Source: Escherichia phage CMSTMSU. Taken from it: DNA of 64,000 bases. The notes under the pieces are model-generated. The model made no database searches, was not told the origin of the DNA, and saw only the letters and a program-made list of their open reading frames with translations. The first letter of the stretch is position 1. Each line of letters begins with the position of its first letter. The DNA lies in the sequence record MH494197.1; one strand, written 5' to 3'. The translations under genes were made by a program, and so were the position numbers. Positions 26,967 to 54,843 of this stretch are shown here, in pieces.

Positions 26967-27158
26967 TCATTGTACATAACGAATATCCTTCTGTAAGGAA
27001 TCAATATATTCTTTAACAACTTGTTCCTGATACTGTGTGCCCAAATACATCAGTACTTTTAACTCTTTGAATTCAGTACTATATGAGTCGGTTTGCATCA
27101 TTTTAGAAGAATATATATTGAATAGTTTAGCAATATCATCTTGGTCTATTATTTTCAT
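26967..27158 (-). CDS. family B paralog (outlier inside family A array)
   Basis: MKIIDQDDI N-terminus and YLGTQYQEQVVKEYI C-terminal core. Confidence 0.45.
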   Translation of the reverse strand: MKIIDQDDIAKLFNIYSSKMMQTDSYSTEFKELKVLMYLGTQYQEQVVKEYIDSLQKDIRYVQ

Positions 27159-27203
27159 TAACCCTCTTCTGAATAAGTTCCTGTAAGTGCTGAATATAAC
27201 CCT

Positions 27204-27653
27204 TCATTGCAACATCCTGTTTGTTAGAGCCAACGAAGAACAAGAGCTTAAAGTCATGGTAATCCATTTTGGTTTAGTAGTGAACCATATGTCCCACACT
27301 GCACTCACAGTTCTCATGTATTCAATTCGATTAAATGTTTTGAATACTTCATCGAAATCAACCTTTAATAAATTGATATTTAAATTACTGTTAAATGCCA
27401 TCTGCAATTCCATATAGAACTGAATAATAGCATAGTCAGGATCAGTACAAGATAGTTGAAAGCACTGTTCTTCAAATGAATTGTAATTGTACTTAGGAAT
27501 ATTAATAGTACGATATAACTCTGGATAACCCCATATCATAGTGTACACGTCAATTTCAGTACACTTTTTCTTAAAAGTCATCTGTCGAATAGTTTCAGAT
27601 CTGGATTCAAGGTATACAACATTCTTATGAACTGCTGAACCAATTGAAATCAA
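27204..27653 (-). CDS. family A paralog
   Basis: core FEEQCFQLSCTD. Confidence 0.45.
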   Translation of the reverse strand: MISIGSAVHKNVVYLESRSETIRQMTFKKKCTEIDVYTMIWGYPELYRTINIPKYNYNSFEEQCFQLSCTDPDYAIIQFYMELQMAFNSNLNINLLKVDFDEVFKTFNRIEYMRTVSAVWDIWFTTKPKWITMTLSSCSSLALTNRMLQ

Positions 27654-39964: not shown

Positions 39965-40165
39965 TTAAGATCCTGAACTATTTCTGGATTCATATTCATT
40001 TATCTCATTCTGTAACTTAAGCATCAAAATTTGCATATTAATTTTTTGTACAAGGTGATTGAGAAATTTCTGTACTGTATCTTCTTGTTCTTTTGACCCA
40101 AGATAAAATAACATATTAAATTCCGATAACCTCAGAGCAAAATCTTCCTCTCCCCTCGTAAACAA
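39965..40165 (-). CDS. family B paralog
   Basis: core YLGSKEQEDTVQKFL. Confidence 0.4.
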   Translation of the reverse strand: MFTRGEEDFALRLSEFNMLFYLGSKEQEDTVQKFLNHLVQKINMQILMLKLQNEINEYESRNSSGS

Positions 40166-40199
40166 AAATCCCTGTACTTTGAAGCGTACAAATATTGGT

Positions 40200-40412
40200 T
40201 TACCTTTTTATACCTTTGGGTCTGCATTGTATCTCCTTTTTCAAACACCTTATTAGATTATCAACGTATTGGTCCTGTACTATTGTCCCTAGATAAAATA
40301 ATACATCGAACTCTGATAATTTTATATTGAAAGGATCTACATATACATCTTTAATAAACTCTTTGTACTTCAAAATATATGCATTAGGTAAATTCTTATA
40401 TATCGATTTCAA
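40200..40412 (-). CDS. family B paralog
   Basis: core YLGTIVQDQYVDNLI. Confidence 0.4.
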   Translation of the reverse strand: MKSIYKNLPNAYILKYKEFIKDVYVDPFNIKLSEFDVLFYLGTIVQDQYVDNLIRCLKKEIQCRPKGIKR

Positions 40413-40626
40413 TGATCCTCCCTGACATACCTTGTATTAGCTTATCATACATATCTAGCATTACTTTTTGAATACTAATTAATACTGGCATCGTGCAAAT
40501 ATCAATGTCGTATATTAAGCTGTACTGGAATAATTCCTCTTCCTGCATTTGTACTAAATTAGGTAAAAGATAATTGTCTGCCTCTTCATCCGGTACTTGA
40601 ATGCATAACGCCATCCTTTTGTACAA
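40396..40626 (-). CDS. family A paralog
   Basis: core EEELFQYSLIYD. Confidence 0.45.
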   Translation of the reverse strand: MYKRMALCIQVPDEEADNYLLPNLVQMQEEELFQYSLIYDIDICTMPVLISIQKVMLDMYDKLIQGMSGRIIEIDI

Positions 40627-40712
40627 AAGAATGTCAATATCACCTAACTCTTCTGCATAACCAAAAATACATATACTGATGTTTTTGCTATATTAAATTT
40701 CATATTCTTCTC

Positions 40713-41063
40713 TTATATGTGGAATTCACATACGTGTTGAACAAAATTCTTTGGAAGATGACAATGTGTAATCATCTGCTTTTGTACTTCCTTCATATCT
40801 TCGAATGTAAATCCTAAAGAATCATCATGTACTAACAAGTACTGAAACTCTTCTTCTTCAGAGATAGAACATAAATTCGGTACTGAAATTGTGTTTGTTT
40901 TTCTTGCACCTAATTTCCAATGAAAAGAATTATTGCATTTTCTGTACTCAAATATCTTCAACCCAGAACCTGTATTAAAATCAGCTACTACAATGTAACA
41001 TGAATTCTTACGTACAATACAATTGAACTTACGCATTATCTCCACCTCTCTCCGTCTGTACAA
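40713..41063 (-). CDS. family A paralog
   Basis: core SEEEEFQYLLVHD. Confidence 0.45.
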   Translation of the reverse strand: MYRRREVEIMRKFNCIVRKNSCYIVVADFNTGSGLKIFEYRKCNNSFHWKLGARKTNTISVPNLCSISEEEEFQYLLVHDDSLGFTFEDMKEVQKQMITHCHLPKNFVQHVCEFHI

Positions 41064-41340
41064 GAGTACTGGTACGTTGTAGTTAGGGTAGGGACCATGT
41101 TTGTAATGGGCATATTATTAACAATAACGGTAACAGGCATAAGAATCGTCTCTTCTCTACTCTGTCCTGTCCTTGTGCAATTCATCTTTTGCATTTCATC
41201 GGACTCCATGAAATACAATACAAATGGTGCAATCCCAAGAACAATACACAAGACGATAAGGAAATTTAAAAATTCAACATAATTTTCTACCCTATGATTA
41301 ACGTACAGGTACTATATCAGTAATGAAAAGTACTGTCAAG

Positions 41341-41715
41341 CTAGTATTGCACTGTTCTAATGAAAGTACCTTTACTCATGGATTTAAGCTTATGAACCTC
41401 TTCCTGCATACCCTTAATTAACCCTAAAGGTATAGGTAAATCATGTACTAAGCTGTACTGAAAGTATTCTTCTTCAGATAAAGTACTAACATCTGGAATG
41501 CCAATTTTAGTTAGATAATCTTGATGTGTTGACCAATAAATTATATCTTCAGTACTATTGTACTCCCCATATACTGAACAATATTGATGAATATCTTTCC
41601 TGTACCCTTGAGCAATAAAGAACTTATCTACTGCATTACCAGCATTAATAGAATTCACTTCGATTGTCACAGTACTTGAGCTTGTTTTTCCTTTACTATG
41701 CATATTAATCCCCAA
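41341..41715 (-). CDS. family A paralog
   Basis: core SEEEYFQYSLVHD. Confidence 0.45.
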   Translation of the reverse strand: MGINMHSKGKTSSSTVTIEVNSINAGNAVDKFFIAQGYRKDIHQYCSVYGEYNSTEDIIYWSTHQDYLTKIGIPDVSTLSEEEYFQYSLVHDLPIPLGLIKGMQEEVHKLKSMSKGTFIRTVQY

Positions 41716-41887
41716 ATTAGATATCGAACACTATCAGCTTGATAGTTAGTTCCTACTGTGTGTTTTAATATTAACTCATCTTTCAGTACTGAACATTCTG
41801 CATTAGATATAGGAAGAGAATTAATTCTTTGAATTTCTGGTCGCAAAATACCGCGAAGCTTGCGGTAATCTTCGTATGATAATATTT

Positions 41888-42238
41888 TCATTGTTTAGTA
41901 CTCAATAATGTGTTCTTCATAATCACCATTAGGCTCTGTTTAGCTTCTTTCATTAGTACTATCATTTTATGTACTAATGGCATAGGAAATTCTAAATCCC
42001 ATACTAATGATTCTTGAAAGTATTCCTCTGGTGATAAAGTACTTAAATCTTTAATATCAACGTGCTTGTATATTTTATTTTCGTAATTAACAAATGATAT
42101 ATATAAATCATTAATATAAGAATCATACGTAATTGTGAATGGCTTACCCTTGTAGTCCATTACATCTCTACATAGACTACTTTTGATATATATATGTTCA
42201 TAGGATTTATATACCTTGAGTTGTATATTAGTTTTCAT
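41888..42238 (-). CDS. family A paralog
   Basis: core SPEEYFQESLVWD. Confidence 0.45.
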   Translation of the reverse strand: MKTNIQLKVYKSYEHIYIKSSLCRDVMDYKGKPFTITYDSYINDLYISFVNYENKIYKHVDIKDLSTLSPEEYFQESLVWDLEFPMPLVHKMIVLMKEAKQSLMVIMKNTLLSTKQ

Positions 42239-42503
42239 ATTTCTCTTTATTAGATTGTGTGGTTTTATAGTGAATGAAATCTATTAATGTAATCAAGTAC
42301 AACGTCAAATAGTACTCTTGTTGATCTGTACCTAATGATACAAAGAACTTGTGCTCATAGATTAAAACCTGTTTCTCTTCAAATGGACATTTAATCCTCT
42401 GTATAGGCTTAAGTAAATGATAGTACTTATTAAATCTATGATACATTTCTAGTTCTGTCAGTACTTTCATATTAAACACGTACTCCATTAGCTGTAGCAT
42501 CAC
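42228..42503 (-). CDS. family B paralog
   Basis: core SLGTDQQEYYLTLYL. Confidence 0.4.
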   Translation of the reverse strand: MMLQLMEYVFNMKVLTELEMYHRFNKYYHLLKPIQRIKCPFEEKQVLIYEHKFFVSLGTDQQEYYLTLYLITLIDFIHYKTTQSNKEKYEN

Positions 42504-42693
42504 GTAAAGCTGTCAAATACTTCTGTACTGCTTGCTCTTGCTTATTTGTACCTAAAAGTATATACATCCATAATTCACTGTAATGTACATCTTCTGTATA
42601 AGGGTTGTTGTAACTTTTTGATAATATAGCATCAAATTCAGATGCATGAACCCTTGTGAACTTAAGAATATCTTGTTGTGTTATGATTCTCAT
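42472..42693 (-). CDS. family B paralog
   Basis: MRIITQQDI start; core LLGTNKQEQAVQKYL. Confidence 0.45.
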   Translation of the reverse strand: MRIITQQDILKFTRVHASEFDAILSKSYNNPYTEDVHYSELWMYILLGTNKQEQAVQKYLTALRDATANGVRV

Positions 42694-42899
42694 ATTTTTC
42701 CTGTACTATCTGTATAAGAATACCTATGTGTGAATTAACAGTTCTCTCTTGATGCTGTGTTCCTAAGAGTGTCAGTACTATCATATCTGAACGCAAAAGA
42801 TTTTTTCAAGTTCACTTATATCAGTTCTTGAATCAAGTGCCATATATTTGTGATTATTCTTCCTGAATAGTGCCAAGTACTCTTGATTTGATATTTCCT

Positions 42900-43430
42900 T
42901 CATAGTTTATCCCTGATGCCATTTAAAAGTGCTCTAATATGTTCCTGTACGAATTTGTACTGACTGTCTGTTCCTAGAGTGAGTAGCAATCTTAAATCTG
43001 AACTTTTGATGTGATATTCTAAATCATTATTTGATTCTTGCATCAGTTTCTTAAAGGATGAGAAGTTTGCAGCCATTAGTTCAATGTATTCTGCTGTTCC
43101 TAGTGGTTTGTGTATTGGCTGTTTGTGCATTTTAATTTTATTACCCTTTGAGTGTATTAATGTAATTATACACATTGGCTTTTGATAGTTAGTTCCCAGT
43201 GTAGCTTGAACATAGATTTCATTTAACTTAATAATTTTATCAGTATCTGGTAGTTTTGATGTGTTAATGGCAAATAACTTCAAAACAGTCCATTTAAGAT
43301 TGTTAGGTATTCTTCGTCGGTAATGATTCGCATTTGCATTGGATAAACCTTTTAGTTCTTTGATGTAATCATTAATATTGCATTCTTGATAGTTAGTCCC
43401 TAGGGTAGCTTGAACATAGATTTCACTCAT
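42900..43430 (-). CDS. family B protein with three tandem modules
   Basis: 176 aa containing QATLGTNYQ twice plus TLGTDSQYKFVQEHI. Confidence 0.45.
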   Translation of the reverse strand: MSEIYVQATLGTNYQECNINDYIKELKGLSNANANHYRRRIPNNLKWTVLKLFAINTSKLPDTDKIIKLNEIYVQATLGTNYQKPMCIITLIHSKGNKIKMHKQPIHKPLGTAEYIELMAANFSSFKKLMQESNNDLEYHIKSSDLRLLLTLGTDSQYKFVQEHIRALLNGIRDKL

Positions 43431-43533
43431 TAGAATATTTTTTCTTCATCAGGTAAATCTGTGGTCTTTGCTATATACAATTTTAGAATTAAACTACTTA
43501 ATAGTTCGTGGTATTCACTTGGTGAAAGGATTT

Positions 43534-43749
43534 TCATTTGCATGTTCTCAGTACAGATTCTTTAAGTTCATCGATGTAGTCCTCAACGAATTGCTCTTGG
43601 AAGTTAGTTCCAACATATAAAAGAACTCTTAAATCTGCTCTAAGTAACTCTTTTTCATCCTCATCTATATCAGACAATGTTATGTTTAAGAATTTACTTG
43701 TATTAAAGATTAACAATTCTGTTTGTTCACTGTGGTTTAAAATTTTCAT
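43534..43749 (-). CDS. family B paralog
   Basis: MKILNHSEQ start; core YVGTNFQEQFVEDYI. Confidence 0.45.
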   Translation of the reverse strand: MKILNHSEQTELLIFNTSKFLNITLSDIDEDEKELLRADLRVLLYVGTNFQEQFVEDYIDELKESVLRTCK

Positions 43750-43957
43750 AATCTCTTTTTGCTTTCCTCGACAGTAGGTACAAATACGATTCTTCGTATT
43801 GTGCTTGGAAGTTTGTGTTTAAGAGTCGAAACAACTTCTGTTCTTCTAGAACGAGTTGCTTATCTTCATAACAACGGTAGCGTATCAACTTTTTGTATTC
43901 GATGTTGATTACATCCATTACTATAAGCCCATGTTCATCATCTGTCAAGTGCTTCAT
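43727..43957 (-). CDS. family B paralog
   Basis: core LLNTNFQAQYEESYL. Confidence 0.4.
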   Translation of the reverse strand: MKHLTDDEHGLIVMDVINIEYKKLIRYRCYEDKQLVLEEQKLFRLLNTNFQAQYEESYLYLLSRKAKRDYENFKPQ

Positions 43958-44162
43958 GCTTTTTTCTTTTCCTGATGTGTTTAGTTAAAAGGTATATTAG
44001 TTTTCTGATGTATTCTTCCTGATAGTTTGTTCCTAGGAGTGCAAGAAGTTTTGCTTCAACTAAAGCTAATTGACGTTCTTCGAATGTGTGTTCCAGTATG
44101 TACTTTGGGTTTGATTTTTAGATATTGCACTATTAGTTTTCATTACAATCTTATGATATTCA

Positions 44163-44420
44163 TTAACTGTTAGGATTTTTAAATTCTTGAGCATGTACCT
44201 TTTCCTTTATAGAGAATTTAAGATATCGAAGCATACTTTCAATGTAATACTCTTGTCTGTCAGTTCCAAGAAAGTACAGGAGTTGAATGTATAAAACTTC
44301 TGCACTCCTTTCGGCATGTGACTTGTTTGTGTCGTTTGGAAGTTGATTTGTAAGTTTTCTGGATTTAATTAATCGTTCTTTTAACTCATCGTCTGTTAAG
44401 TATATCATTTCATTTTGCAT
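44163..44420 (-). CDS. family B paralog
   Basis: core FLGTDRQEYYIESML; N-terminus near-identical to 44457..44645. Confidence 0.45.
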   Translation of the reverse strand: MQNEMIYLTDDELKERLIKSRKLTNQLPNDTNKSHAERSAEVLYIQLLYFLGTDRQEYYIESMLRYLKFSIKEKVHAQEFKNPNS

Positions 44421-44456
44421 TTACTTTTTCCATAATAGTAATTTTGAGATATTTAA

Positions 44457-44645
44457 TTATACGTTCAATGTGATACTTTGCCTATCAGTTCCAAGAAGGT
44501 ATGGTAATGACTGGAATAAAACTTCTGCACTCCTTTCTGCTGGGGTTTGGTTTGGGTCATTTGGAAGTTTATTTGTAAGTCTTTTGGATTTATCTAGTCT
44601 TTCTGTTAACTCATCATGTGTTAAGTATATCATTTCATTTTGCAT
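44457..44645 (-). CDS. family B paralog, C-terminally truncated
   Basis: MQNEMIYLTHDEL... ends right after LLGTDRQ. Confidence 0.4.
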   Translation of the reverse strand: MQNEMIYLTHDELTERLDKSKRLTNKLPNDPNQTPAERSAEVLFQSLPYLLGTDRQSITLNV

Positions 44646-44881
44646 TTAATGTTCCTTACGTAAATTGTCTGGATTAAAAGTGAAATCCATTTTTCTACAT
44701 ATTGGTTTTGATACTGTGTGCCTAAAAGACTCTGCATTTTAAACTCTTCTTCGAGTGCATATCTCGTTTCTATAGTAAAGCTTAAATGACCATATTCTTT
44801 ATCGTATCTTCTCAGTGCTTCCCCAATTCTATCAAATCTTTCTGCTATTCTGATGTTATTAATTTTATTCATCGCATTCAT
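44630..44881 (-). CDS. family B paralog
   Basis: core LLGTQYQNQYVEKWI. Confidence 0.45.
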   Translation of the reverse strand: MNAMNKINNIRIAERFDRIGEALRRYDKEYGHLSFTIETRYALEEEFKMQSLLGTQYQNQYVEKWISLLIQTIYVRNIKCKMK

Positions 44882-44966
44882 CGATCAGTACACCTTAGTG
44901 GACGGGTCATTTGATAAAAGTACAGCTTACCTTTGATTTCCAATAGTAACTCAGCAATTAATCGAT

Positions 44967-45155
44967 TTACTTCTGGCTCTTGATAGTTTGTCCTAACAAT
45001 GCACCCATCTTTAACTCACGCATCATAATCATTTTCTTACTGTGTTGAATTTCTGGGTTGTGATAGATTGTATTACGTTTGTGTGTAATTTTTGTCATAC
45101 GCTCGGTATATTCATCTTTACTTAAATTGATCATTTGCATGTTCATCAACCTCAC
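44967..45155 (-). CDS. family B paralog, degenerate
   Basis: MRLMNMQMINLSKDEY start shared with 45563..45811; core degraded to LLGQTIKSQ. Confidence 0.35.
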   Translation of the reverse strand: MRLMNMQMINLSKDEYTERMTKITHKRNTIYHNPEIQHSKKMIMMRELKMGALLGQTIKSQK

Positions 45156-45562
45156 ATTTATTTTCGATACAAATCATTAGTTCTCTAAGATAGTTTTTAT
45201 CTTACCTTCCTGATGGTTCGTCCCGAAAGTTGCATAACTCTGCTTCTATCATTTTGATTCTTCTGGTGTCAGGTTTCAATCTTTTGTTATTGAAGATTTG
45301 AATCCTTATATCCCTTGATGCATTTAAACGTTTTGATATTCATGGAAAGATAAATTAATCATTTACTTTGTATCTCTCTCTTGAGGGCATCAATTAACAA
45401 CAGTACAGCATTCTCTTGATAGTTTGTTCCTAAGACTGAAAGCATCTTAATCTCATTTACTACGATCAACTTCTTTGAGCGTTCAATAATGTTACTATTA
45501 TAAACGGCGTTACGTGCTGGATAAGTTTTGCAAGACGATCATAATATTCATCTTTACTTAAA

Positions 45563-45811
45563 TTAATCATTTGCATTTCTCGTACATTTACTTAGTTTAC
45601 TCCCAATGTATTTCTTAAGTGTAATTATATATTCCTCTACATAATACTCCTGATAGTTAGTTCCTAAGAATGCACATAGCTTTGTCTCACGCTTCATAAT
45701 CATCTTATTTTCGTGTTTGTTTACTTCACCGAAATGGATTTCATTAAGTTTAGGTAAGATTTTTGCTTGGCGTTCTTTATATTCAGATTTACTTAAATTA
45801 ATCATTTGCAT
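45563..45811 (-). CDS. family B paralog
   Basis: core FLGTNYQEYYVEEYI. Confidence 0.45.
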   Translation of the reverse strand: MQMINLSKSEYKERQAKILPKLNEIHFGEVNKHENKMIMKRETKLCAFLGTNYQEYYVEEYIITLKKYIGSKLSKCTRNAND

Positions 45812-46014
45812 TTACTTTGGATCTCCTTGACTAATGCATCAACCCACATGTCTATATACATTTGTTGATAGTTTGTCCCTATGAGTGCCCTGCATAGAGT
45901 TCAGCTATCATTGCATGTTTTAGGTTGGCAGGATGCTCTTATCAGATTGAATCTTTACTCTTCTGTTGGCACATGTTTTCAGGAGTCTGATGTATTCAAA
46001 GCCTTGTAATTTTC

Positions 46015-46230
46015 TCATTCTTTAGATATCACCTTGTTACGTAAGGCACTTAACAATACGTCAGTGTAGATGTTTTGATAGTTTGTTCCTACGAAAGCAC
46101 CCAACTTCATTTCAGCTATTATAACACATTTGTCCTCTTGTGCAATAGACTTGTCTAAAGAAATACTAACAACTTTCCTTCTTATAGCTTGTAATCTCCA
46201 ATGATACTGATACTCATTTAGGGTTATCAT
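46015..46230 (-). CDS. family B paralog
   Basis: core FVGTNYQNIYTDVLL. Confidence 0.45.
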   Translation of the reverse strand: MITLNEYQYHWRLQAIRRKVVSISLDKSIAQEDKCVIIAEMKLGAFVGTNYQNIYTDVLLSALRNKVISKE

Positions 46231-46465
46231 TCTCTCGCCTCCATATCTCGGTTCTAATGTGTTGACATTGTGCTTCGATGAACATATCTATTGATTTGGC
46301 AATTGCGTTTTTATCTGTGCCAGTCATCAGTACAAGCATCTCGGCCTCACAGTGAAGTAAACGCATGATATCATAGGGTAATATTCCAGATACCGTGTCA
46401 TAGTGTTTCTGTGCCAGTGTCTGTAATAGTTTACAATACATTTTGTGATTTAGTCTGTGTCGCAT
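46214..46465 (-). CDS. family B-like paralog, degenerate
   Basis: LMTGTDKNAIAKSIDMFI in place of core. Confidence 0.35.
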   Translation of the reverse strand: MRHRLNHKMYCKLLQTLAQKHYDTVSGILPYDIMRLLHCEAEMLVLMTGTDKNAIAKSIDMFIEAQCQHIRTEIWRRENDNPK

Positions 46466-47587
46466 TGTTTATTCCATTCTTTTTGGCCCTCTGGGTTTTA
46501 TATTGGATTTGGTTTCTTAATGCTGATAAGTATCGTTGAATGAACAGATCTTGATAGTTTGTTCCAATGAATTTCATAAGATAAAGTTCACCGTTGATAA
46601 CATCCACTTCAGGTGCACCATATAAGGCATTGTTTTTCTAAGGGCATGGATTAAAGAGAATAGGGCAGTTTGATACTCAACTCCTGATAAAGTCTTCATG
46701 TTTTGTGAGCCAATAATCATCTAGTTTATCCTGTATAACATTCATTAATTGTTCGACATATTCTGTGCAAAACTTATCTTGATATTGAGTCCCATAAAGT
46801 ACAGCAACCATAGCTCATTAACTTTAGCTCGCATTTGGTTCCATGTAAGGCTGGGGTCATCGTAGACTATCCTTGCTATAGGGTTAGTTTACGGACTATA
46901 GTTTCATATTCATCTAGTGTTAAGTGTTTCATTTACATTTGTCCCTTATTAGATCAGTGAGGGCAACTATGTGTGCAACAACATACTCTTCCTGAAAGTT
47001 CGTCCCAGTACAGCCATCATGCGTATATCGGTGGTGTTTATCCTGTGTTCCCTTACACATAAACCTTCTGTGTGAGGAAGTGTAAAATATTTGTTTATTG
47101 CAGCAATGATAATTTTATTCTTCTCGGAATTACTTAAATGTTTCATAGTTTGCTCTTAATGTATTTCTGGAGTGCAATTATATACTCATTCAAGAAGTGC
47201 TCTGATAATCTGTGCCGAGGAATGCACCCAATAGTATATCATTTTCCAATACTAATGCTAAGTTCAAATCATCAGTCTCTTCATATACTATGAGAATTTC
47301 AAGTTGTCTGGCAGCGACGCGTTCGGTATATTGATTTGAGTTTGCAATGATATTCATAGTTTACTCTTTATGTAATTCTTGAGTGCAATTAAGTATTCCC
47401 CTACATAATACTCCTGAAAGTCTGTATCCAAAAATGCACCCATAAGTAAATCTTTTTCTAATACCCTTGATAAGTTAAGGTCTGCATTTGAAAGGTATAT
47501 AAGTAAGATTTCACCCTGTGCGGAATTGAAACGTTTCTTATATTCTTCTGGTGTTAAAAAATCATAGTTTACTCTTAATATCTTCTA

Positions 47588-47770
47588 TTAAAAATGAATC
47601 CAATCGTCAACATACTCTTCCTGATGGTTTGTGTTCAGTACAGCCAACATGCGGATCTCTGCTCTTGCAACTTGGATTTCAGTTTTAGAAAGGTCTTTGC
47701 TGATATCAAACATTAAGTCCATGTATTTCAAGATAAGACCGAATGATTGGGTTCGTGTTATAGTTTTCAT
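47588..47770 (-). CDS. family B paralog
   Basis: core VLNTNHQEEYVDDWI. Confidence 0.4.
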   Translation of the reverse strand: MKTITRTQSFGLILKYMDLMFDISKDLSKTEIQVARAEIRMLAVLNTNHQEEYVDDWIHF

Positions 47771-47967
47771 TGTTTCCTCGTGGACAATATTTCATTTTTC
47801 AATGCATCCATATATTGAATCACCCATCTTCCCTGATAGCTTGTTCCCAATGTAATCAAAAGGTATAACTCAATTCGTTCTAAGTTTGTGTCTGTGTTAT
47901 AAATCTTTACCATGTTTTTACGTAACAGTTCTTGATAATCTTCTTTATTTAAAATACGCATTTTCAT
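47767..47967 (-). CDS. family B paralog
   Basis: MKMRILNKEDYQ start; core TLGTSYQGRWVIQYM. Confidence 0.45.
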   Translation of the reverse strand: MKMRILNKEDYQELLRKNMVKIYNTDTNLERIELYLLITLGTSYQGRWVIQYMDALKNEILSTRKQ

Positions 47968-48161
47968 AGTCTACCTTTTATGTCCCTTCGTAATTCTTGT
48001 AAGTATAGTTCGATATACTTTTCTTGATAGTTAGTTCCTATGAAAAGTTTCATAACCAATTCACGCTTATATGCAATACCACGGATATGTGACATATGTA
48101 GGATATATGCCATGTTGGATATGAGTGTGTGGTTGTGCTCTTCTTCAGTTAAAATACGCAT
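47964..48161 (-). CDS. family B paralog
   Basis: MRILTEEEH start; core FIGTNYQEKYIELYL. Confidence 0.45.
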   Translation of the reverse strand: MRILTEEEHNHTLISNMAYILHMSHIRGIAYKRELVMKLFIGTNYQEKYIELYLQELRRDIKGRL

Positions 48162-48877
48162 AGGGACTCCATTAAAAATAATATCAATCCCATAATATAC
48201 GATTCATATAAAAGTCAATAACATTTTATTCGTAATACCCTTTATCGAAGTCGCTAAGGTTACCCGCCCTTTAGCCCCTACGCATTTTGCCATAGTCCAA
48301 TCCTTTTATTCATAAAAGTCAAGGGATTACCTATGCATTTTTTAACGCTGAAGTTTAAAAATGCCTTGACTTTTTATGATTCAGTACTAAATCCTTTTAC
48401 GCATTAATCCTTCGTTACGCTTACGATTATCTGTGTATCCCCATAGTCCTGCCATACTTCCACGCCAGCCGTCGCCCGGTTAGTCGTGCTGTCATCTGCT
48501 TAATGGTCTTAGGCTTTAGTGGAACCTGTTGCAGTACTGTACGCATAGTATCATCGACGTTATCGTGTACGCCTGCAATAGTGCCTAGGACGCTGTATAC
48601 GTGTATAGAACATATGTATGCCCTCCTGATATAGTTAAGGCCGCTACAAGGCGGCCTATGATGTTTGGTGATGTGTAACGCTTACAGTCCTAAGATAGTG
48701 CGTGCTTCGTTACGTTCCGTGCACAGCTGCATGATGTGAGCAAGTAAGTCCTTGCTAATGTATCCGGTGTTCATAGCTTCACGAATAGATACATCATAAG
48801 CACCGAACCCGTGCGAACGATACGCACATCATTCAGGTTAGTATTATAGATACCGCCGAGATCAACGGCTTCGAATA

Positions 48878-49081
48878 CTACATCAACAGAATATTCATTG
48901 TTGCCATCGTGGAAGTTTTCCAGTGCAATAGTATTGGATACCGCCCAACGTTTGCAGTTTCAATGATGCGGCACTGTTCCGGTTGGATAGTGCCATTACT
49001 TACAGCGTACTCCAGTGCATCTTTACCAAAAGTCCGAGCCAGTACTAAAACGTCAGCGAAGGAAGTGATTGAGAAGGTCAT
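48878..49081 (-). CDS. hypothetical small protein (67 aa), probably continues beyond a frameshift
   Basis: ATG MTFSITSF... with AAGGAG SD directly downstream of a promoter/stem-loop cassette; the track merges it with the upstream gene because no stop intervenes. Confidence 0.4.
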   Translation of the reverse strand: MTFSITSFADVLVLARTFGKDALEYAVSNGTIQPEQCRIIETANVGRYPILLHWKTSTMATMNILLM

Positions 49082-49099
49082 GATAAAACTCCTTAATTT

Positions 49100-49161
49100 A
49101 GGAGGGAGAACCATTTCCTCTCTATGTAAAACATTATACATGAATCTAAGTACTATGCAAG
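49100..49161 (-). promoter_or_regulatory. PeSL-like cassette (promoter plus 5' stem-loop)
   Basis: minus strand TTGCAT - 16 nt - TATAAT, then short hairpin, then SD/ATG. Confidence 0.5.
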
Positions 49162-49164
49162 TAC

Positions 49165-49498
49165 TTTTACATTTTAATACCGGATTCAGGTAGCGGTGAG
49201 ATCCATATTCTGGATCGGTTTCGGTCCAGTACTGTAAATCGATAGTACCTTTCGCGTTAATCTTGTCTACCAGCTTATTCATCTTAGCGTATACTACGTC
49301 AGCATCGATGCGTTTAAAGCCAGTAGCTTTAGTGAAGTAGTAGTGATTTGCTTCACTATCATTAAGGATATACCGAGCACCGTTTGCCGTTTGTGCGATA
49401 ATGATTGAGTATTCTACGTTACGGTCGAGGCCGTCGATGAATACAGAGGAAACATTAGTACGGATGAAAGCTTTAACGATAGCGATTGAAGTAGTCAT
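49165..49498 (-). CDS. hypothetical protein, 3' end unresolved
   Basis: MTTSIAIVKAFIRTN...; reading frame runs through the downstream cassette without a stop. Confidence 0.35.
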
Positions 49499-49587
49499 TT
49501 TGAATCTCCTAACTTTGTGGGCCGTCGCACCATTGCCGCCCTACGAGATACATTATTGCAGTACTGATATACTTTGTCAATACTTTT

Positions 49588-49725
49588 TATTAATAGTTTT
49601 AGTTCCACCAGCAGATAGTTACTCACCGTTATTAACTATATATTTTGGATACACCTATGCACCCTGTGGGCTAGTTTTTGTCTATGCGTATATATAGCAG
49701 GACTGACCGAGTCAATCCCTTTTTA
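49588..49725. repeat. ~130 bp repeated intergenic element, copy 1
   Basis: shares ATGCACCCTGTGGGCTAG ... TATATAGCA(A)GGACTGACCGAGTCAATCCCTTTTT with copies at 52.3, 55.6 and 60.1 kb. Confidence 0.6.
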
Positions 49726-49956
49726 TTCTTTTTGTTAGATGATTCTCCAATCATCAACGATCATGGTAAGATACCGAACCAGTGATTCGAGTGATTCGTG
49801 TTCTCGATAGTCTGCCGCTCCACCAGCGGTACAAGTACAGCCGATTAAGCCGTTTTGTAGTTCCGGATCTTTACGTCGATCTGGTTGGCTTTAGCTTCTT
49901 TCAGTACTTCAACCGGGCGAGAGCGATAGACATAATGTTTTACTCCAAACTATTGG

Positions 49957-50016
49957 CGGGAGAACTATTCCCCGCTCTATGTAAAACATTATACATTACT
50001 GGTTAGTACTGTCAAA
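49957..50016 (-). promoter_or_regulatory. PeSL-like cassette
   Basis: TTGACA - 16 nt - TATAAT on minus strand, hairpin GCGGG...CCCGC just downstream. Confidence 0.55.
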
Positions 50017-50022
50017 TAGTTT

Positions 50023-50280
50023 TTATGAAATATCTTCGATGTAGTCGGCCCATTTCATTTTTTCAGTACTGTCAATGGCTACCGGATTATTTGGATCAAA
50101 CCATTCACCATTACCGCAGTACATACCCACGGCTACGGTTTTATAGCCATCCCGGGCCGCACACCACGACATTGCACGATAGATATGGCCTTTAACTGGT
50201 TGCAGTACTGGTAACGTTTTATGGTCTTCTACGTAGGCCATAGCTTGTGGATTTACCCGATATTGTGTGAACTGTTCCAT
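50023..50280 (-). CDS. hypothetical protein (85 aa)
   Basis: track ORF; promoter-like sequence upstream. Confidence 0.45.
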   Translation of the reverse strand: MEQFTQYRVNPQAMAYVEDHKTLPVLQPVKGHIYRAMSWCAARDGYKTVAVGMYCGNGEWFDPNNPVAIDSTEKMKWADYIEDIS

Positions 50281-50593
50281 TATGTTTCCCCTTGTAGTTA
50301 GTAAAGTTATTACATCAGTACTATCAAGCTATGTCAATAGTACTGAAATAAAACTTTTAGATTAGATTATTGAGGCCGTCAATGGTAGACTCACTTTCTT
50401 CTTTCTCCCATTGTCGGTAGTACTTCCATGCTTCATGATAGGTGGCGATCAGTTCATCTTTTGATCCGGTTACATGCCAGTACTGAATCACGGTGAGCGG
50501 TGTTATAGATAGAATCGAATGATTTCTTCTCTTCTGCCGTTAGCTACTTCCCGCATCAGTTCATCAAAGTTAGCCATTTTATTACTCCTTTTA

Positions 50594-50650
50594 GTGGGGA
50601 GGATATCTCCCTATGCAAAACATTATACTTTGTTTTAGTTATTATGCAAG
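50594..50650 (-). promoter_or_regulatory. PeSL-like cassette
   Basis: TTGCAT - 15 nt - TATAAT; hairpin GGGAG GATAT CTCCC. Confidence 0.5.
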
Positions 50651-50902
50651 TACTTTTTCATATAAACATTAAATTCTACACCGCCGTAACCTTCCACGAT
50701 GATATGTTTTGCGTTATCACGTTTGCACATAGTGAAACCATCGTTTACGTGTTTTGCATTTTCGGGCGACATCACCGATAGCGGCACATACGGCACTAAT
50801 AACAGTATTCCGCAAAGTACTGGTATCATTGGCGGTCATAGTAGTTTGCAGTACTACGTTGTCGTATACGTGTGCATTGATAGTGATTTCGATAGTGTTC
50901 AT
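50635..50902 (-). CDS. hypothetical small protein, frame-shifted
   Basis: ORFs 50717..50902 and 50635..50829 overlap in two frames and look like one gene. Confidence 0.35.
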
Positions 50903-50916
50903 GGTGTATCTCGACT

Positions 50917-50978
50917 GGCGGGAGAACTATTCCCCGCTCTATGTAAAACATTATACGTTAATCTAACTACAATGCAAG
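50917..50978 (-). promoter_or_regulatory. PeSL-like cassette
   Basis: TTGCAT - 16 nt - TATAAT; hairpin GCGGGAGAACTATTCCCCGC. Confidence 0.55.
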
Positions 50979-51233
50979 TACTTTTAAATTTTATTTCCGA
51001 TATAGTCCGGTCTATTCTTTTCGGTCATACGCTTTGCTAATGTTTGCATATGGCTTATTGCTTGTAGTGTATCCTCTTCCGGGATGAATCGAGATAATCA
51101 GGATCATTCTTCACCTTGCAATGATTATGATAGCGTAGTACTGCCAGTACTTTTTAACTTCTTCTACTGTCATAATAAGTACCCACTTCGTTAGCTTTCA
51201 GGTTAGTATCAATCATCAGTGGATTTTTGTAGT

Positions 51234-51440
51234 TCACAAAACGAGTAGTTTTCTCGATAGCGAATCCCATATAATCCAGCTTACTAACAGTACATTCATT
51301 CTTAAAACTTCTTTCGCTGCATCGATGGCTGATTGCATGGATAACCGACCATCTAAATTAATGTTTCCAAATGATCCACCAGCAGAAGTAGGATTACCGT
51401 TCATATCTTTAATGATCATAGTAGCGGAGTAGCTGGACAT
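51234..51440 (-). CDS. hypothetical small protein
   Basis: track ORF 68 aa; AAGGA SD; cassette immediately upstream. Confidence 0.45.
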   Translation of the reverse strand: MSSYSATMIIKDMNGNPTSAGGSFGNINLDGRLSMQSAIDAAKEVLRMNVLLVSWIIWDSLSRKLLVL

Positions 51441-51463
51441 AATTTTGTTTCCTTTTATTGGTG

Positions 51464-51520
51464 TGGGAGAACTATTCTCCCTTGATGTAAACTATTATAC
51501 AGTACTGATATACTTTGTCA
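51464..51520 (-). promoter_or_regulatory. PeSL-like cassette
   Basis: TTGACA - 16 nt - TATAAT; perfect hairpin GGGAGA ACTAT TCTCCC. Confidence 0.6.
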
Positions 51521-51559
51521 AATACTTTTATTCGCCCATATAGATTAGATTATCATCGC

Positions 51560-51930
51560 CTACATAGGATCGCAAACGTTGATTTCTTCGCAGTACTTCG
51601 TGAATACATCGCCATAGTGACCTAAACCACGATCCCAAAACCAGTTCCGTGACCTTCGCGGGTAAGGAACAGATCATGACCAGCTTGCTCATAACCGTAA
51701 TCAATAAACATACCGCGAACTACTTCCAGATCATTACCGTGTTTCTCAATGAAGCGAGAACATGCAATCACTGCCGCTTGATGGGCTTGCTCTGATAATT
51801 CATAATCTTCCGTAATCGCCGTTCTCATTGTGTACAGTACTGAATTGCATAGCTTCAATGTAAGCTACAACCATTGCAGCATGATTTTTATCGTTAGTGA
51901 TGTTCCGAGCGAGATTAGTAGTAGTAGACA
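51560..51930 (-). CDS. hypothetical protein, frame-shifted
   Basis: ATG MSTTTNLARN...; continues in two other frames through ...REGHGTGFWDRGLGHYGDVF... Confidence 0.35.
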
Positions 51931-51951
51931 TGATTTTATTCCTTTTAGTAT

Positions 51952-52009
51952 CGGGGAGAACTATTCTCCCTTGATGTAAACTATTATACAGTACTAATAT
52001 ACTTTGTCA
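51952..52009 (-). promoter_or_regulatory. PeSL-like cassette
   Basis: TTGACA - 16 nt - TATAAT; hairpin GGGGAGAACTATTCTCCC. Confidence 0.6.
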
Positions 52010-52254
52010 ATACTTAATTACGTTTAAAATGATATGTGCCTTTATCATCCTGTACGCCCCATACTGATTTACCATCAACACCAGTGAAGCCGGATTGTAA
52101 TTCAATATGGAAACCATTATTATCAACTACAAAAACTTTTTATTTTCATCCCGATAACATTGATATTCTGAATCAACATTAAAGGCCGCATCATTCAGAA
52201 GATTAGAAGCGTAAATGCAAGTCATTGTAGTCATGATTTTATTCCTTATTGCCG

Positions 52255-52308
52255 TGGAACCGTTCCTCTCGATATAAAACATTATACTTGATTCTAAGTA
52301 TAATGCAA
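52255..52308 (-). promoter_or_regulatory. PeSL-like cassette
   Basis: TTGCAT - 16 nt - TATAAT; hairpin GGAAC C GTTCC, stem sequence differs from other copies but pairing is kept. Confidence 0.55.
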
Positions 52309-52311
52309 GTA

Positions 52312-52446
52312 CTTTTTAAAATAGTTTTCAGTACTGAATACTTATATAATAGATACACTTCCGCACCCTATGGGTCAGTGAGTTATCTCTCAATGGATAT
52401 ATATAGCAAAGGACTGACCGAGTCAATCCCTTTTTAATCTTTTTAT
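52312..52446. repeat. ~130 bp repeated intergenic element, copy 2
   Basis: CGCACCCTATGGGTCAGTGAG...GGACTGACCGAGTCAATCCCTTTTTAATC. Confidence 0.6.
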
Positions 52447-52507
52447 CGTGTTACCTTACTTGCTGCCACATCACGCTTTTTATAGTACTGATTCCAGATA
52501 TTGCTGG

Positions 52508-52825
52508 TTAAACCGTAATCAAGTACTTTAATAAGTCCATTACGATCCCGCCGATATTCTGTTTTCTGATATCTCTTATCGTTAGTGTTGATAATGTATC
52601 ATCGACGTGTTGTAGTGCATCAGCAAAGCGGTGCTGGCGTTCAATGGCATTACGTTTAATATTGTACTTTAATTCATTGCACGCGTTTACGTGCTTTACA
52701 CTGCCTTTACTTGCAGTACTCAACCGATCCATAACGATAAACATATTATCAGGATCGCATAAATGCATATGCACCTTTGCAAAGTACTGTTTCAACTGAG
52801 GGCGGTCATAGTCTAAAAATTCCAT
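52508..52825 (-). CDS. hypothetical protein (105 aa)
   Basis: track ORF. Confidence 0.45.
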   Translation of the reverse strand: MEFLDYDRPQLKQYFAKVHMHLCDPDNMFIVMDRLSTASKGSVKHVNACNELKYNIKRNAIERQHRFADALQHVDDTLSTLTIRDIRKQNIGGIVMDLLKYLITV

Positions 52826-52891
52826 ACCTTACATTCAGTTTCATTTTGTTCGACACCCGCATCACAATTCGCGACCTTAATCACTAACCGA

Positions 52892-53296: not shown

Positions 53297-53434
53297 TTTG
53301 TTTCTCCCCGTGTTGGTATGTACATATAGTACTAAAACATTTGAGTACTGTCAATTAGATAATATTATATTTCTTAAAATAAAATGCGTCTTGTGTTGGT
53401 TGATACTCGATACCGTTACCGTTATTGACTTCAA

Positions 53435-54745: not shown

Positions 54746-54764
54746 TTTATTTCTCTCTTTTAGT

Positions 54765-54825: not shown

Positions 54826-54843
54826 TACTTATTTTTGGAAAGT

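What the first reader, a model, noticed from the sequence alone, without database searches (positions are those of the whole stretch)
39965..48161. Second tandem array: at least 25 small proteins with an L-G-T-N-Y-Q-E-x-Y-V core (family B)
From about 40 to 48.2 kb nearly every gene is a 60-85 aa protein beginning M-[KR]-I-[LI]-[TN]... and ending with LGTNYQE-x-YV-x-x-Y-I-x-x-L (e.g. FLGTNYQEYYVEEYI, YVGTNFQEQFVEDYI, TLGTSYQGRWVIQYM). Genes recur roughly every 200-250 bp on the same strand. Further copies sit in the ORF-poor gaps 45155-45563 and 46465-47588 (reverse-complement reads FGTNHQE, IGTNYQD, YGTQYQD, GTNFQE, LGTDYQS) but lack an intact start or frame. One outlier (26967..27158) is embedded in the family A array. 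I do not recognise the family.
Basis: seen in the sequence. Interest (0 to 1): 0.75.

Follow-up and report, generated by a model that had tools for sequence, protein, structure and literature searches.

The report
Thirty-gene small-protein array in jumbo coliphage
A giant E. coli virus carries about 30 back-to-back, fast-evolving copies of one tiny three-helix protein of unknown function just inside its terminal repeat; the array is real, and the copies that look broken are most likely sequencing errors.

Summary
Window 39965-48161 (minus strand) holds 30 copies of a ~65-90 aa protein family with an L-G-T-N-Y-Q-E core, and two more sit at ~26967-27320. The window is an Asteriusvirus (PBECO4/121Q/fEgEco12-like) jumbo coliphage.

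- **The "frame-less" copies are probably assembly artefacts.** Against three relatives the window has 77-92 one-base deletions in homopolymers and 0-4 insertions. Seven related genomes keep 25-31 copies, nearly all full length.
- **The genes are real coding genes.** Orthologue dN/dS is 0.36-0.46, invariant residues use varied codons, all 30 fEgEco12 copies start with ATG, and 21 of 30 have an SD-like motif.
- **AlphaFold2 gives a confident three-helix bundle** (pLDDT 96.4). I infer that the motif is the helix-2/helix-3 turn and cap. The surface is hypervariable and pI runs from 4.4 to 10.
- **No function is known.** The family is catalogued only as phrog_4148. Pfam, NCBIfam, PADLOC and the PDB give no match by sequence or fold.
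- **The array starts ~100 bp inside the left terminal repeat.** A promoter-like site lies upstream and all 27 junctions of the contiguous part overlap.
- **Relatives also carry the family.** Klebsiella phage K64-1 and uncultured RaK2-like phages have 13-16 copies.

Best reading (inferred): an early-expressed, diversifying set of scaffolded host-binding proteins. It is a new family within a known kind of viral paralogue expansion.

The parts
47964..48161 (-). Copy 1 (65 aa, intact), first gene of the array
   Evidence: ORF; HMM profile positions 1-71, E 1.6e-17; 98% identical to fEgEco12 g057
47767..47967 (-). Copy 2 (66 aa, intact)
47560..47770 (-). Copy 3; C-terminus cut by a 1-nt homopolymer deletion at 47590 (approximate end)
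   Evidence: the 69-aa orthologue is intact in fEgEco12
47354..47566 (-). Copy 4; start lost through a 1-nt homopolymer deletion at 47556 (approximate)
47143..47357 (-). Copy 5; 1-nt deletion (CC>C) at 47202 shifts the frame
46929..47146 (-). Copy 6; frameshift at 47004
46677..46932 (-). Copy 7 (orthologue of fEgEco12 B08); frameshifts at 46881 and 46791. The fEgEco12 copy B07 that precedes it there is absent from the window.
46450..46720 (-). Copy 8; frameshifts at 46633 and 46480 (approximate end)
46214..46465 (-). Copy 9 (83 aa, intact; divergent core MTGTDKNA)
46015..46230 (-). Copy 10 (71 aa, intact)
45802..46018 (-). Copy 11; frameshifts at 45931 and 45888
45563..45811 (-). Copy 12 (82 aa, intact). 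Identical to P0001 (phage CMSTMSU). It looks chimeric, with a breakpoint at the motif.
   Evidence: chimerism
45359..45575 (-). Copy 13; frameshift at 45526 (approximate start)
45118..45362 (-). Copy 14; indels at 45331, 45227 and 45194
44878..45155 (-). Copy 15; 1-nt deletion (TT>T) at 44991 shifts the frame
44630..44881 (-). Copy 16 (83 aa, intact)
44410..44645 (-). Copy 17; frameshift at 44478. It is 81% identical at DNA level to copy 18, a recent duplicate pair.
   Evidence: family D2
44163..44420 (-). Copy 18 (85 aa, intact)
43956..44194 (-). Copy 19; frameshift at 44115
43727..43957 (-). Copy 20 (76 aa, intact; core LNTNFQA)
43534..43749 (-). Copy 21 (71 aa, intact)
43303..43543 (-). Copy 22; frameshifts at 43438 and 43350
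43090..43340 (-). Copy 23; frameshifts at 43282, 43182 and 43147 (approximate bounds). In the window it is merged into the artefactual 176-aa ORF 42900-43430.
42900..43139 (-). Copy 24; open frame, with a 9-nt in-frame deletion relative to fEgEco12
42692..42903 (-). Copy 25; frameshifts at 42806 and 42696
42472..42693 (-). Copy 26 (73 aa, intact)
42228..42503 (-). Copy 27 (about 86-91 aa, intact); last gene of the contiguous block
41667..41891 (-). Copy 28 (74 aa, intact), lying between family-A-type genes
40200..40412 (-). Copy 29 (70 aa, intact; N-terminal YK..P subtype). It has no counterpart in fEgEco12.
39965..40216 (-). Copy 30; N-terminus shifted by a 1-nt deletion at 40152 (approximate start)
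26967..27158 (-). Outlier copy (63 aa, intact) inside the family-A array
   Evidence: fEgEco12 g125
27137..27320 (-). Second outlier copy (core LFFVGSNKQD). Frameshifted in the window, intact in fEgEco12 g124 (approximate bounds).
48185..48218 (-). Sigma-70-like promoter TTGACT-N16-TATTAT (the spacer is one T short in the window), followed by a GGAG Shine-Dalgarno 7 nt before the first ATG
   Evidence: Sequence read; not tested experimentally
48255..48265 (.). Approximate position of the inner boundary of the left direct terminal repeat, ~100 bp upstream of copy 1
   Evidence: The fEgEco12 DTR is 20,993 bp (PMC13070987) and its first array gene starts at 21,091. vB_Ec-M-J annotates its DTR as 1-21,525 and its first array gene starts at 21,624. 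The position was mapped to the window through the alignment.
48300..48385 (-). Stable nested hairpin between the last DTR gene and the array; possibly a terminator or insulator
   Evidence: The fEgEco12 equivalent folds at -21.2 kcal/mol, z = -4.9

Best explanation
**What it is (shown).** It is a lineage-specific multigene family of an Asteriusvirus jumbo coliphage. About 30 diverged paralogues (mean 27% amino-acid identity) of a ~70-aa soluble protein are packed head to tail on one strand. In the clean relative fEgEco12, all 27 junctions of the contiguous part overlap by 4-44 nt. The array begins ~100 bp inside the left ~21-kb direct terminal repeat, behind a sigma-70-like promoter.

**Fold (predicted).** Each protein is predicted to be an up-down-up three-helix bundle. 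A short N-terminal strand is bridged to the helix-2/helix-3 turn.

**Role of the motif (inferred).** The L-G-T-x-x-Q-E motif is that turn: Gly ends helix 2, and Thr with Gln/Glu form the N-cap of helix 3. The N-terminal L-[TS]-x-x-E-Y is the matching cap of helix 1. The other conserved positions are mostly hydrophobic with a core-like spacing. Almost all remaining positions are hypervariable, and net charge ranges from strongly acidic to strongly basic.

**How it most likely works (inferred, not shown).**
- The array is transcribed early by host RNA polymerase as a long, translationally coupled operon.
- Each paralogue uses the common scaffold to present a different surface.
- The set therefore acts as a repertoire of small binders or inhibitors of host proteins, for host take-over, anti-defence or host range.
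- The repertoire is kept diverse by tandem duplication, copy gain and loss, allele replacement and occasional recombination at the conserved motif.

**The interrupted copies (shown).** The frameshifted copies in this window are sequencing artefacts, not decay.
For: - **Array and strand bias:**
- **Genome identity:**
- **Intact arrays elsewhere:** seven other genomes carry 25-31 copies, nearly all full length. All 27 junctions of the contiguous fEgEco12 block overlap by 4-44 nt.
- **Coding:** concatenated orthologue dN/dS is 0.36-0.46. Invariant residues use varied codons: Gly uses GGA, GGG, GGT and GGC; Thr uses ACA, ACT and ACG; Gln uses CAA and CAG. All 30 copies start with ATG, and an SD-like motif precedes 21 of 30 starts against 20% at random positions.
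- **Sequencing-error signature:** 92 versus 0 one-base homopolymer deletions and insertions against fEgEco12, compared with 10 versus 6 between two clean relatives.
- **Fold:** pLDDT 96.4, pTM 0.81, helices 8-27, 33-47 and 54-81, with a bridge between residues 4 and 51.
- **Scaffold versus surface:** the low-entropy columns are the caps and hydrophobic positions; most other columns exceed 3 bits. pI runs from 4.4 to 10.0.
- **Faster evolution than neighbours:** the adjacent DTR genes show dN/dS of 0.13-0.15 in the same genome pairs. Array DNA is 82-86% identical where the DTR is 94-96% identical.
- **Turnover:** orthologue identity ranges from 44 to 100% between close genomes, and copies are gained and lost. 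The closest paralogues are neighbours. One copy is chimeric, with its breakpoint at the motif.
- **Position and promoter:**
- **Early expression by analogy:** in the related phage PA5oct most genes between gp34 and gp105 in the DTR are highly transcribed early, and the phage relies on host RNA polymerase (PMC7318152).
- **Not virion proteins:** no gp44x-gp48x entry appears in the phAPEC6 virion proteome table, where family member gp470c lies.
- **Conserved in relatives:** an uncultured RaK2-like contig has 16 copies, another has 15, and Klebsiella phage K64-1 has at least 13.
Against: - No experiment or homology links any member to a target or a phenotype. The binder-repertoire function is inferred only from architecture, position and evolutionary pattern.
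- A dN/dS of ~0.4 fits relaxed constraint as well as diversifying selection. No site-level test for positive selection was made.
- Early timing is an analogy with PA5oct. I found no Asteriusvirus transcriptome.
- Promoter-like sites in the region are no more frequent than in shuffles (46 versus 51).
- An unexplained synonymous constraint hints at an additional nucleotide-level role that this explanation does not cover. Within the motif, Asn is AAC in 17 of 17 copies and Tyr is TAT in 15 of 15.
Confidence: 0.55

Rival explanations
1. The proteins are small DNA-binding regulators. Helix 2, the Gly turn and helix 3 would act as a helix-turn-helix, and each paralogue would recognise a different site.
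For: The core L-G-T-N-Y-Q-E-x-Y-V-x-x-Y-I resembles, from memory, classical HTH turns such as lambda Cro L-G-V-Y-Q-S-A-I-N-K-A-I. About half of the members are basic, with 14 of 30 above pI 8.5. Paralogue expansions of putative transcription factors are known in jumbo phages, for example about 35 zinc ribbons in Bacillus phage G (PMC7824862).
Confidence: 0.12
2. The expansion is largely neutral. A duplication-prone segment has left many copies under relaxed constraint, and the individual copies have no distinct functions.
For: dN/dS is about three times that of the neighbouring DTR genes. Copy number varies from 25 to 31, and single copies are present or absent between genomes that are 97-98% identical.
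Against: Paralogues are old (27% mean identity), yet nearly every copy is full length with an ATG start in seven genomes. dN/dS is well below 1. Synteny of individual copies is kept across the genus. The family persists in other genera.
Confidence: 0.12
3. The conserved unit is partly a nucleotide element. The sequence AACTATCA inside each gene would serve as a recombination or template-switch site, or as a protein- or RNA-recognition site, and the coding motif would sit on top of it.
For: In the motif, Asn is AAC in 17 of 17 copies against 36% AAC elsewhere in the same genes (Fisher p = 2e-7). Tyr is TAT in 15 of 15 against 61% elsewhere (p = 0.001). The pattern holds in seven genomes. NY dipeptides in other genes are AAC-TAT in only 5 of 36 cases. 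Copy 12 is chimeric, with its breakpoint at the motif.
Against: Only about 11-15 of 30 copies carry the exact N-Y core. Neighbouring synonymous sites (Gly, Thr, Gln, Leu) vary freely. In K64-1 and the uncultured relatives the two middle residues vary, and Asn is often AAT. The protein-level explanation as a helix cap is sufficient for G, T and Q.
Confidence: 0.08
4. The proteins are packaged in the virion and injected with the DNA, like internal or ejection proteins.
For: They are small and soluble and are encoded next to the genome end. phAPEC6 has a capsid inner body whose composition was not examined here.
Against: The published phAPEC6 virion proteome of 62 proteins has no entry in the gp44x-gp48x range, where the family lies. 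This is weak evidence, because 7-10 kDa proteins are easily missed by gel LC-MS/MS.
Confidence: 0.03
5. The array in this phage is decaying, and about half of the copies are true pseudogenes.
For: In the window, 16-17 of 30 copies have broken frames.
Against: The breaks are almost all single-base losses in homopolymers, strongly one-directional, and they occur equally outside the array. All relatives, including a 98.4%-identical genome, keep the frames. The likely source record is flagged UNVERIFIED.
Confidence: 0.03

Closest known systems
PHROG family phrog_4148 (unknown function), with the partial sub-family phrog_28039
   Same: All 10 members tested match phrog_4148 over its full length, with E from 4e-10 to 4e-25. 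This is the same family.
   Different: PHROGs records only a profile with no function. The tandem-array organisation, the fold, the position at the terminal-repeat boundary and the sequence turnover are not part of that record.
Lineage-specific paralogue expansions in jumbo phages, for example the ~35 zinc-ribbon copies of Bacillus phage G (Iyer et al. 2021, PMC7824862) and the 'nearly 10% paralogues' noted for RaK2 (PMC3622015)
   Same: A large copy number of one small domain within a single giant phage genome, with unknown or speculative function.
   Different: The fold is different: a three-helix bundle with no metal-binding signature. The genes form one contiguous block of overlapping genes. 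The papers I searched on fEgEco12, Sharanji, phAPEC6 and RaK2 do not describe this family.
Terminal multigene families of large eukaryotic DNA viruses, such as the ASFV MGF families and poxvirus terminal host-range genes (from general knowledge, not tested here)
   Same: Tandem paralogues next to terminal repeats. Copy number and sequence vary between strains while the core genome is conserved. These families are generally thought to act in host range and immune evasion.
   Different: There is no sequence or fold relationship. The host is bacterial, the proteins are much smaller, and a role in host range is only inferred here.
Early host-take-over small ORFs of T-even and T5 phages, and the early-transcribed DTR genes of the related jumbo phage PA5oct (PMC7318152)
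   Same: Small proteins of unknown function encoded on one strand at the leading genome end. A sigma-70-type promoter lies upstream. The phage group is reported, for PA5oct, to rely on host RNA polymerase.
   Different: Those regions hold many unrelated small genes, each usually with its own promoter. Here a single family is repeated about 30 times without intergenic spacers. Timing has not been measured for Asteriusvirus.
Helix-turn-helix DNA-binding domains (Cro/CI type)
   Same: A Leu-Gly-Thr/Val turn followed by a polar helix start, in a three-helix protein.
   Different: No profile match, long antiparallel helices, no HTH structural neighbours, and variable charge.

Membership tests
phrog_4148 | Significant full-length match to the family profile HMM | tested here: met
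   10 of 10 members match with E from 3.6e-10 to 3.7e-25, covering profile positions 1-2 to 69-73 of 74
Tandem multigene family (lineage-specific expansion) | Three or more detectably homologous genes, adjacent and on the same strand | tested here: met
   30 copies in 39965-48161, all on the minus strand; 27 are contiguous
Tandem multigene family (lineage-specific expansion) | Copy number and content vary between related genomes | tested here: met
   25-31 copies in seven genomes; single copies are gained or lost; allele identity ranges from 44 to 100%
Tandem multigene family (lineage-specific expansion) | Copies are under selection as proteins, not decaying | tested here: met
   dN/dS is 0.36-0.46; copies are full length in relatives; the window's frameshifts carry the signature of homopolymer sequencing error
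Early host-take-over or anti-defence effectors | Expressed early in infection | not testable with these tools
   Only position, a promoter-like site and the analogy with PA5oct are available. No Asteriusvirus transcriptome was found.
Early host-take-over or anti-defence effectors | Binds or inhibits a host or defence protein | not testable with these tools
   No interaction data exist. The PADLOC hits (one member each, E about 0.002) are noise.
Helix-turn-helix DNA-binding proteins | Match to an HTH profile (Pfam or NCBIfam) | tested here: not met
   No HTH family matches among 30 members, even at E <= 1
Helix-turn-helix DNA-binding proteins | HTH geometry and structural neighbours | tested here: not met
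Non-coding DNA repeat | Conservation at nucleotide level without a codon-position pattern or open frames | tested here: not met
   Tandem Repeats Finder finds no array. Variation falls on synonymous positions, and frames are open in seven genomes. A local synonymous constraint on AAC-TAT remains unexplained.
Virion or ejection proteins | Detected in purified particles | tested here: not met
   Absent from the phAPEC6 virion proteome table. This is a literature check and a weak negative.
Known RNA families or tRNA genes | Rfam gathering-score match or ARAGORN call | tested here: not met
   No Rfam match and no tRNA in the whole window

The most novel reading that the evidence does not exclude
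The array could be a phage-encoded, self-renewing repertoire of scaffolded binders. In this reading the nucleotide-constrained core (ACN-AAC-TAT-CAR) inside every gene is a dedicated recombination or template-switch site. It would shuffle N-terminal halves (helices 1-2) with C-terminal halves (helix 3) between paralogues and between co-infecting phages. New surface combinations against host defences would then be generated on demand.
Probability: 0.08. Interest if true: 0.85.

Novelty: new member of a known kind. Interest (0 to 1): 0.5.

Why it matters
Roughly 30 genes, about 5% of the gene count of a culturable E. coli phage, belong to one uncharacterised three-helix family. The family evolves about three times faster than its neighbours and varies between strains. 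If the members are early effectors, the array is a ready-made and experimentally tractable panel of small proteins that target E. coli functions or defence systems. It would also be a bacterial-virus counterpart of the terminal multigene families of poxviruses and ASFV.

There is a practical point as well. The apparent gene decay in this window is an assembly artefact, so annotation of this genome, probably phage CMSTMSU, needs error correction before any comparative claim is made.

Tried and rejected
- **Tandem Repeats Finder:** no array found. The copies are too diverged at DNA level (27% amino-acid identity), so the repeat is visible only as protein or as the ~17-nt core.
- **Function by homology:** Pfam, NCBIfam, PADLOC and PDB sequence search gave only isolated sub-threshold hits, each for a single member.
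- **Exhaustive HMM search:** a search of 1.84 billion cluster representatives found only 92 clusters. Every one I traced came from Asteriusvirus or RaK2-like genomes and contigs.
- **Fusion proteins:** P0084 (269 aa), P0085 and P0088 (~121 aa) carry the domain at the N-terminus, but their C-terminal parts match nothing, and P0084's does not align with the family-A gene compared.
- **Homodimer test:** two copies joined by a GS linker were modelled with a self-paired alignment. pTM was 0.50 and pLDDT fell to 72, so there is no support for a dimer, but the test is crude.
- **Promoter and terminator scan:** counts are not above shuffles, so only the site upstream of copy 1 is discussed.
- **Systematic N-half versus C-half nearest-neighbour discordance:** mostly noise, because helix 3 is short. 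Only copy 12 is convincing.
- **Early-promoter word:** TTGACTTTTAT is not a general motif and occurs only as the two copies upstream of the array.
- **Codon-pair bias as an explanation for AAC-TAT:** rejected.
- **Literature:** no paper I searched describes the array.

Full report
**1. What the window is**

Megablast places the region in the Asteriusvirus group of ~350-kb jumbo coliphages (PBECO4, 121Q, G17, phAPEC6). The closest annotated record is fEgEco12, at 97.4% identity over the array. One window protein (ORF 45563-45811) is identical to a protein that NCBI lists under 'UNVERIFIED_ORG: Escherichia phage CMSTMSU', on a 386-kb contig. The window probably comes from that record.

**2. Checking the observation**

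- The amino-acid pattern [LIVFMYCA]GTxxQ occurs 27 times in minus-strand frames and 3 times in plus-strand frames. Of the minus-strand hits, 24 lie between 40.2 and 48.1 kb.
- The DNA core ACNAACTATCAR occurs 11 times, all on the minus strand within the array, against 0.12 expected by chance.
- A profile built from the 30 paralogues of fEgEco12 (alignment A1) finds 42 fragments in the window. All are on the minus strand.
- With the tblastn map of the fEgEco12 proteins, these fragments merge into 30 copies in 39965-48161. Two further copies lie at ~26967-27320.
- Thirteen copies are intact ORFs and one more has an open frame. The other 16 are interrupted.
- The interval also contains four genes of the other family (SEEEYFQYSLVHD type) and one unrelated small ORF at 40396-42238.
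- Tandem Repeats Finder sees no array. The copies share only short DNA stretches around the motif.

**3. The broken copies are sequencing artefacts**

Aligned to fEgEco12, almost every indel in the window is a one-base deletion in a homopolymer run, such as T6 read as T5.

| Comparison | 1-nt deletions in homopolymers | 1-nt insertions in homopolymers |
|---|---|---|
| Window vs fEgEco12 | 92 | 0 |
| Window vs vB_Ec-M-J | 81 | 4 |
| Window vs Turkey3 | 77 | 4 |
| vB_Ec-M-J vs fEgEco12 | 10 | 6 |

A metagenomic genome that is 98.4% identical over 4.4 kb gives the same result: 21 gaps where the window lacks bases and 2 where it has extra bases.

The bias is present outside the array as well. The seven relatives hold 25-31 copies, of which 22-29 are full length, and further near-identical contigs have uninterrupted gene strings. 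The pseudogene reading is therefore not supported.

**4. The genes encode real proteins**

- Concatenated orthologue pairs between fEgEco12 and six other genomes give dN/dS of 0.36-0.46.
- Invariant residues use several codons: Gly uses GGA, GGG, GGT and GGC; Thr uses ACA, ACT and ACG; Gln uses CAA and CAG; Leu uses six codons.
- All 30 fEgEco12 copies start with ATG. An SD-like motif precedes 21 of them, against 20% at random positions.
- All 27 junctions of the contiguous block overlap by 4-44 nt, and 13 of them are the 4-nt ATGA type. This suggests a translationally coupled operon.
- No Rfam family or tRNA is present in the window.

**5. Structure and conservation**

- AlphaFold2, using only the 30 paralogues as its alignment, gives pLDDT 96.4 and pTM 0.81. 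The model has helices at 8-27, 33-47 and 54-81, and residue 4 is bridged to residue 51.
- Across 207 members, the low-entropy columns are M1, L4, T/S5, E8, Y9, L13, a hydrophobic series, E40, L47, G48, T49 (100%), N/D50, Y51, Q52 (96%), E53, V56, Y59, I60, L63 (96%), I67 and K70. Most other columns exceed 3 bits.
- My reading, an inference from standard helix-capping rules, is as follows. G48 ends helix 2, T49-x-x-Q52 is the capping box of helix 3, and [TS]5-x-x-E8 is the capping box of helix 1. The two caps sit side by side through the bridge.
- The motif therefore defines the fold rather than an active site.
- pI ranges from 4.4 to 10.0. The proteins are hydrophilic, with negative GRAVY for 28 of the 30 members.
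- A crude linked-homodimer model gave no support for dimerisation, with pTM 0.50.

**6. Searches for relatives and function**

- Ten of ten members match phrog_4148, which has no known function.
- Pfam, NCBIfam, PADLOC and PDB sequence searches give nothing consistent.
- An exhaustive profile search of 1.84 billion cluster representatives returns only 92 clusters.
- Every hit that carries a source name is a 'hypothetical protein' of an Asteriusvirus or of an E. coli assembly containing such a phage.
- tblastn with one member finds only the 33 Asteriusvirus records.
- With the profile, the family also appears in an uncultured RaK2/K64-1-like phage (16 copies on a 101-kb contig, 12 of them contiguous; 15 copies on a second contig) and in Klebsiella phage K64-1 (at least 13 copies in small clusters).
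- In those relatives only L-G-[TS]-x-x-Q is kept, which fits a structural role for the motif.
- None of the papers I searched describes the array.

**7. Position and expression signals**

- fEgEco12 has an experimentally supported 20,993-bp direct terminal repeat (PMC13070987). Its first array gene starts at 21,091.
- vB_Ec-M-J annotates its repeat as 1-21,525, and its first array gene starts at 21,624.
- The array therefore begins ~100 bp inside the unique region and is transcribed away from the repeat.
- In that 100 bp lies TTGACT-N16-TATTAT, followed by a GGAG Shine-Dalgarno.
- Just inside the repeat is a stable hairpin, -21.2 kcal/mol with z = -4.9.
- In the related phage PA5oct, most genes between gp34 and gp105 in the terminal repeat are highly transcribed early, and the phage depends on host RNA polymerase (PMC7318152). 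Early expression of the array is an inference from this.
- The phAPEC6 virion proteome table has no entry in the gp44x-gp48x range, where the family lies.

**8. Evolutionary pattern**

- Paralogues average 27% identity. The closest pairs are neighbours (51-64%), and identity declines weakly with distance (p = 0.07 in fEgEco12 and 0.006 in G17). This points to old tandem duplication.
- Order is syntenic across the genus. Orthologue identity nevertheless runs from 44 to 100% between genomes whose terminal-repeat genes are 87-94% identical at protein level.
- Single copies are present or absent between very close genomes.
- Adjacent terminal-repeat genes have dN/dS of 0.13-0.15. The genes on the family-A side have 0.37-0.44.
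- Copy 12 (45563-45811) has an N-terminal part closest to copy 15 and a C-terminal part closest to copy 4 (79% DNA identity over 90 nt). The switch is at the motif.

**9. An unexplained detail**

- Inside the motif, Asn is AAC in 17 of 17 copies. Elsewhere in the same genes AAC makes up 36% of Asn codons (p = 2e-7).
- Tyr is TAT in 15 of 15 copies, against 61% elsewhere (p = 0.001). The pattern holds in all seven genomes.
- This is not a general codon-pair preference. NY dipeptides in other genes are AAC-TAT in only 5 of 36 cases.
- It is absent from the uncultured relatives and mixed in K64-1.
- It may reflect selection for translational accuracy, short-patch gene conversion, or a superposed nucleotide signal. 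I could not decide between these.

**10. Interpretation**

With high confidence, this is a genuine, expressed-looking multigene family and not a repeat or a decaying array. It encodes a three-helix scaffold with hypervariable surfaces and forms one dense operon at the leading end of the unique genome.

With moderate confidence, it is an early-expressed repertoire of small binders of host or defence proteins, diversified by duplication, replacement and recombination. This rests on inference only.

The rivals (DNA-binding regulators, neutral expansion, a nucleotide element, virion proteins, pseudogenes) are each disfavoured by specific results given above. None is excluded by experiment.

**11. 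Novelty and score**

The family is already catalogued without a function, and paralogue expansions are known in jumbo phages. I therefore file it as a new member of a known kind. It is nevertheless one of the larger single-family arrays in a culturable coliphage and is directly testable in E. coli, so I score interest at 0.5.

Noticed in passing
whole window; examples at 47590, 47556, 47004, 46791, 45526: The window sequence systematically lacks single bases in homopolymer runs relative to every relative: 77-92 deletions against 0-4 insertions. Many ORFs across the window, not only in this array, are artificially broken or fused; the 176-aa ORF 42900-43430 is one example. The source is probably GenBank's UNVERIFIED phage CMSTMSU.
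   Followed up: yes
motif codons of all copies, e.g. window 48024-48035, 46551-46562, 45416-45427: There is a synonymous-site constraint inside the motif. Asn is always AAC (17 of 17) and Tyr is always TAT (15 of 15), while the flanking Gly, Thr, Gln and Leu codons vary. It is not a general codon-pair bias, and it is absent or mixed in the K64-1-like relatives. Unexplained.
   Followed up: partly
window 45563-45811 compared with 47354-47566 and 44878-45155: Copy 12 looks like a recombinant. Its N-terminal two-thirds resemble copy 15 (71% DNA identity over 150 nt) and its C-terminal helix resembles copy 4 (79% over 90 nt). The switch falls at the conserved motif.
   Followed up: partly
window ~48300-48385 (L001 17560-17632): A stable nested inverted repeat (AAAAGTCAAGG ... 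CCTTGACTTTT enclosing GCATTTTT ... AAAAATGC) lies just inside the terminal-repeat boundary. It folds at -21.2 kcal/mol, z = -4.9. It may be a terminator for the last repeat gene or may be related to the repeat boundary.
   Followed up: partly
In fEgEco12 one family-B gene overlaps the start of a family-A gene (L001 10306-10530 and 9980-10354). Some relatives carry longer proteins with a family-B domain at the N-terminus (P0084 at 269 aa; P0085 and P0088 at ~121 aa).
   Followed up: partly
window ~27137-27320: A second outlier family-B copy (core LFFVGSNKQD) lies directly upstream of the reported outlier at 26967-27158. It is frameshifted in the window and intact in fEgEco12 (g124).
   Followed up: yes
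window ~42000 and ~48000: Composition changes in steps. On the + strand, AT skew changes from about -0.05 to between -0.16 and -0.24, and GC skew from about -0.18 to about 0, at ~42 kb, where family A gives way to family B. GC content rises from ~0.31-0.35 to ~0.36-0.41 at ~48 kb, the terminal-repeat boundary.
   Followed up: no
window 48200-64000 (terminal-repeat side) compared with the array: Genes on the terminal-repeat side are separated by ~80-100-nt spacers and are far more conserved between phages (dN/dS 0.13-0.15, 94-96% DNA identity). The array genes overlap and diverge to 82-86% DNA identity.
   Followed up: partly
window 41311-41339 (minus strand): A near-consensus sigma-70 promoter (TTGACA-17-TATAGT with an extended TG) lies in the short gap after the family-A-type gene 41341-41715. 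It may be an internal promoter for the downstream genes.
   Followed up: no
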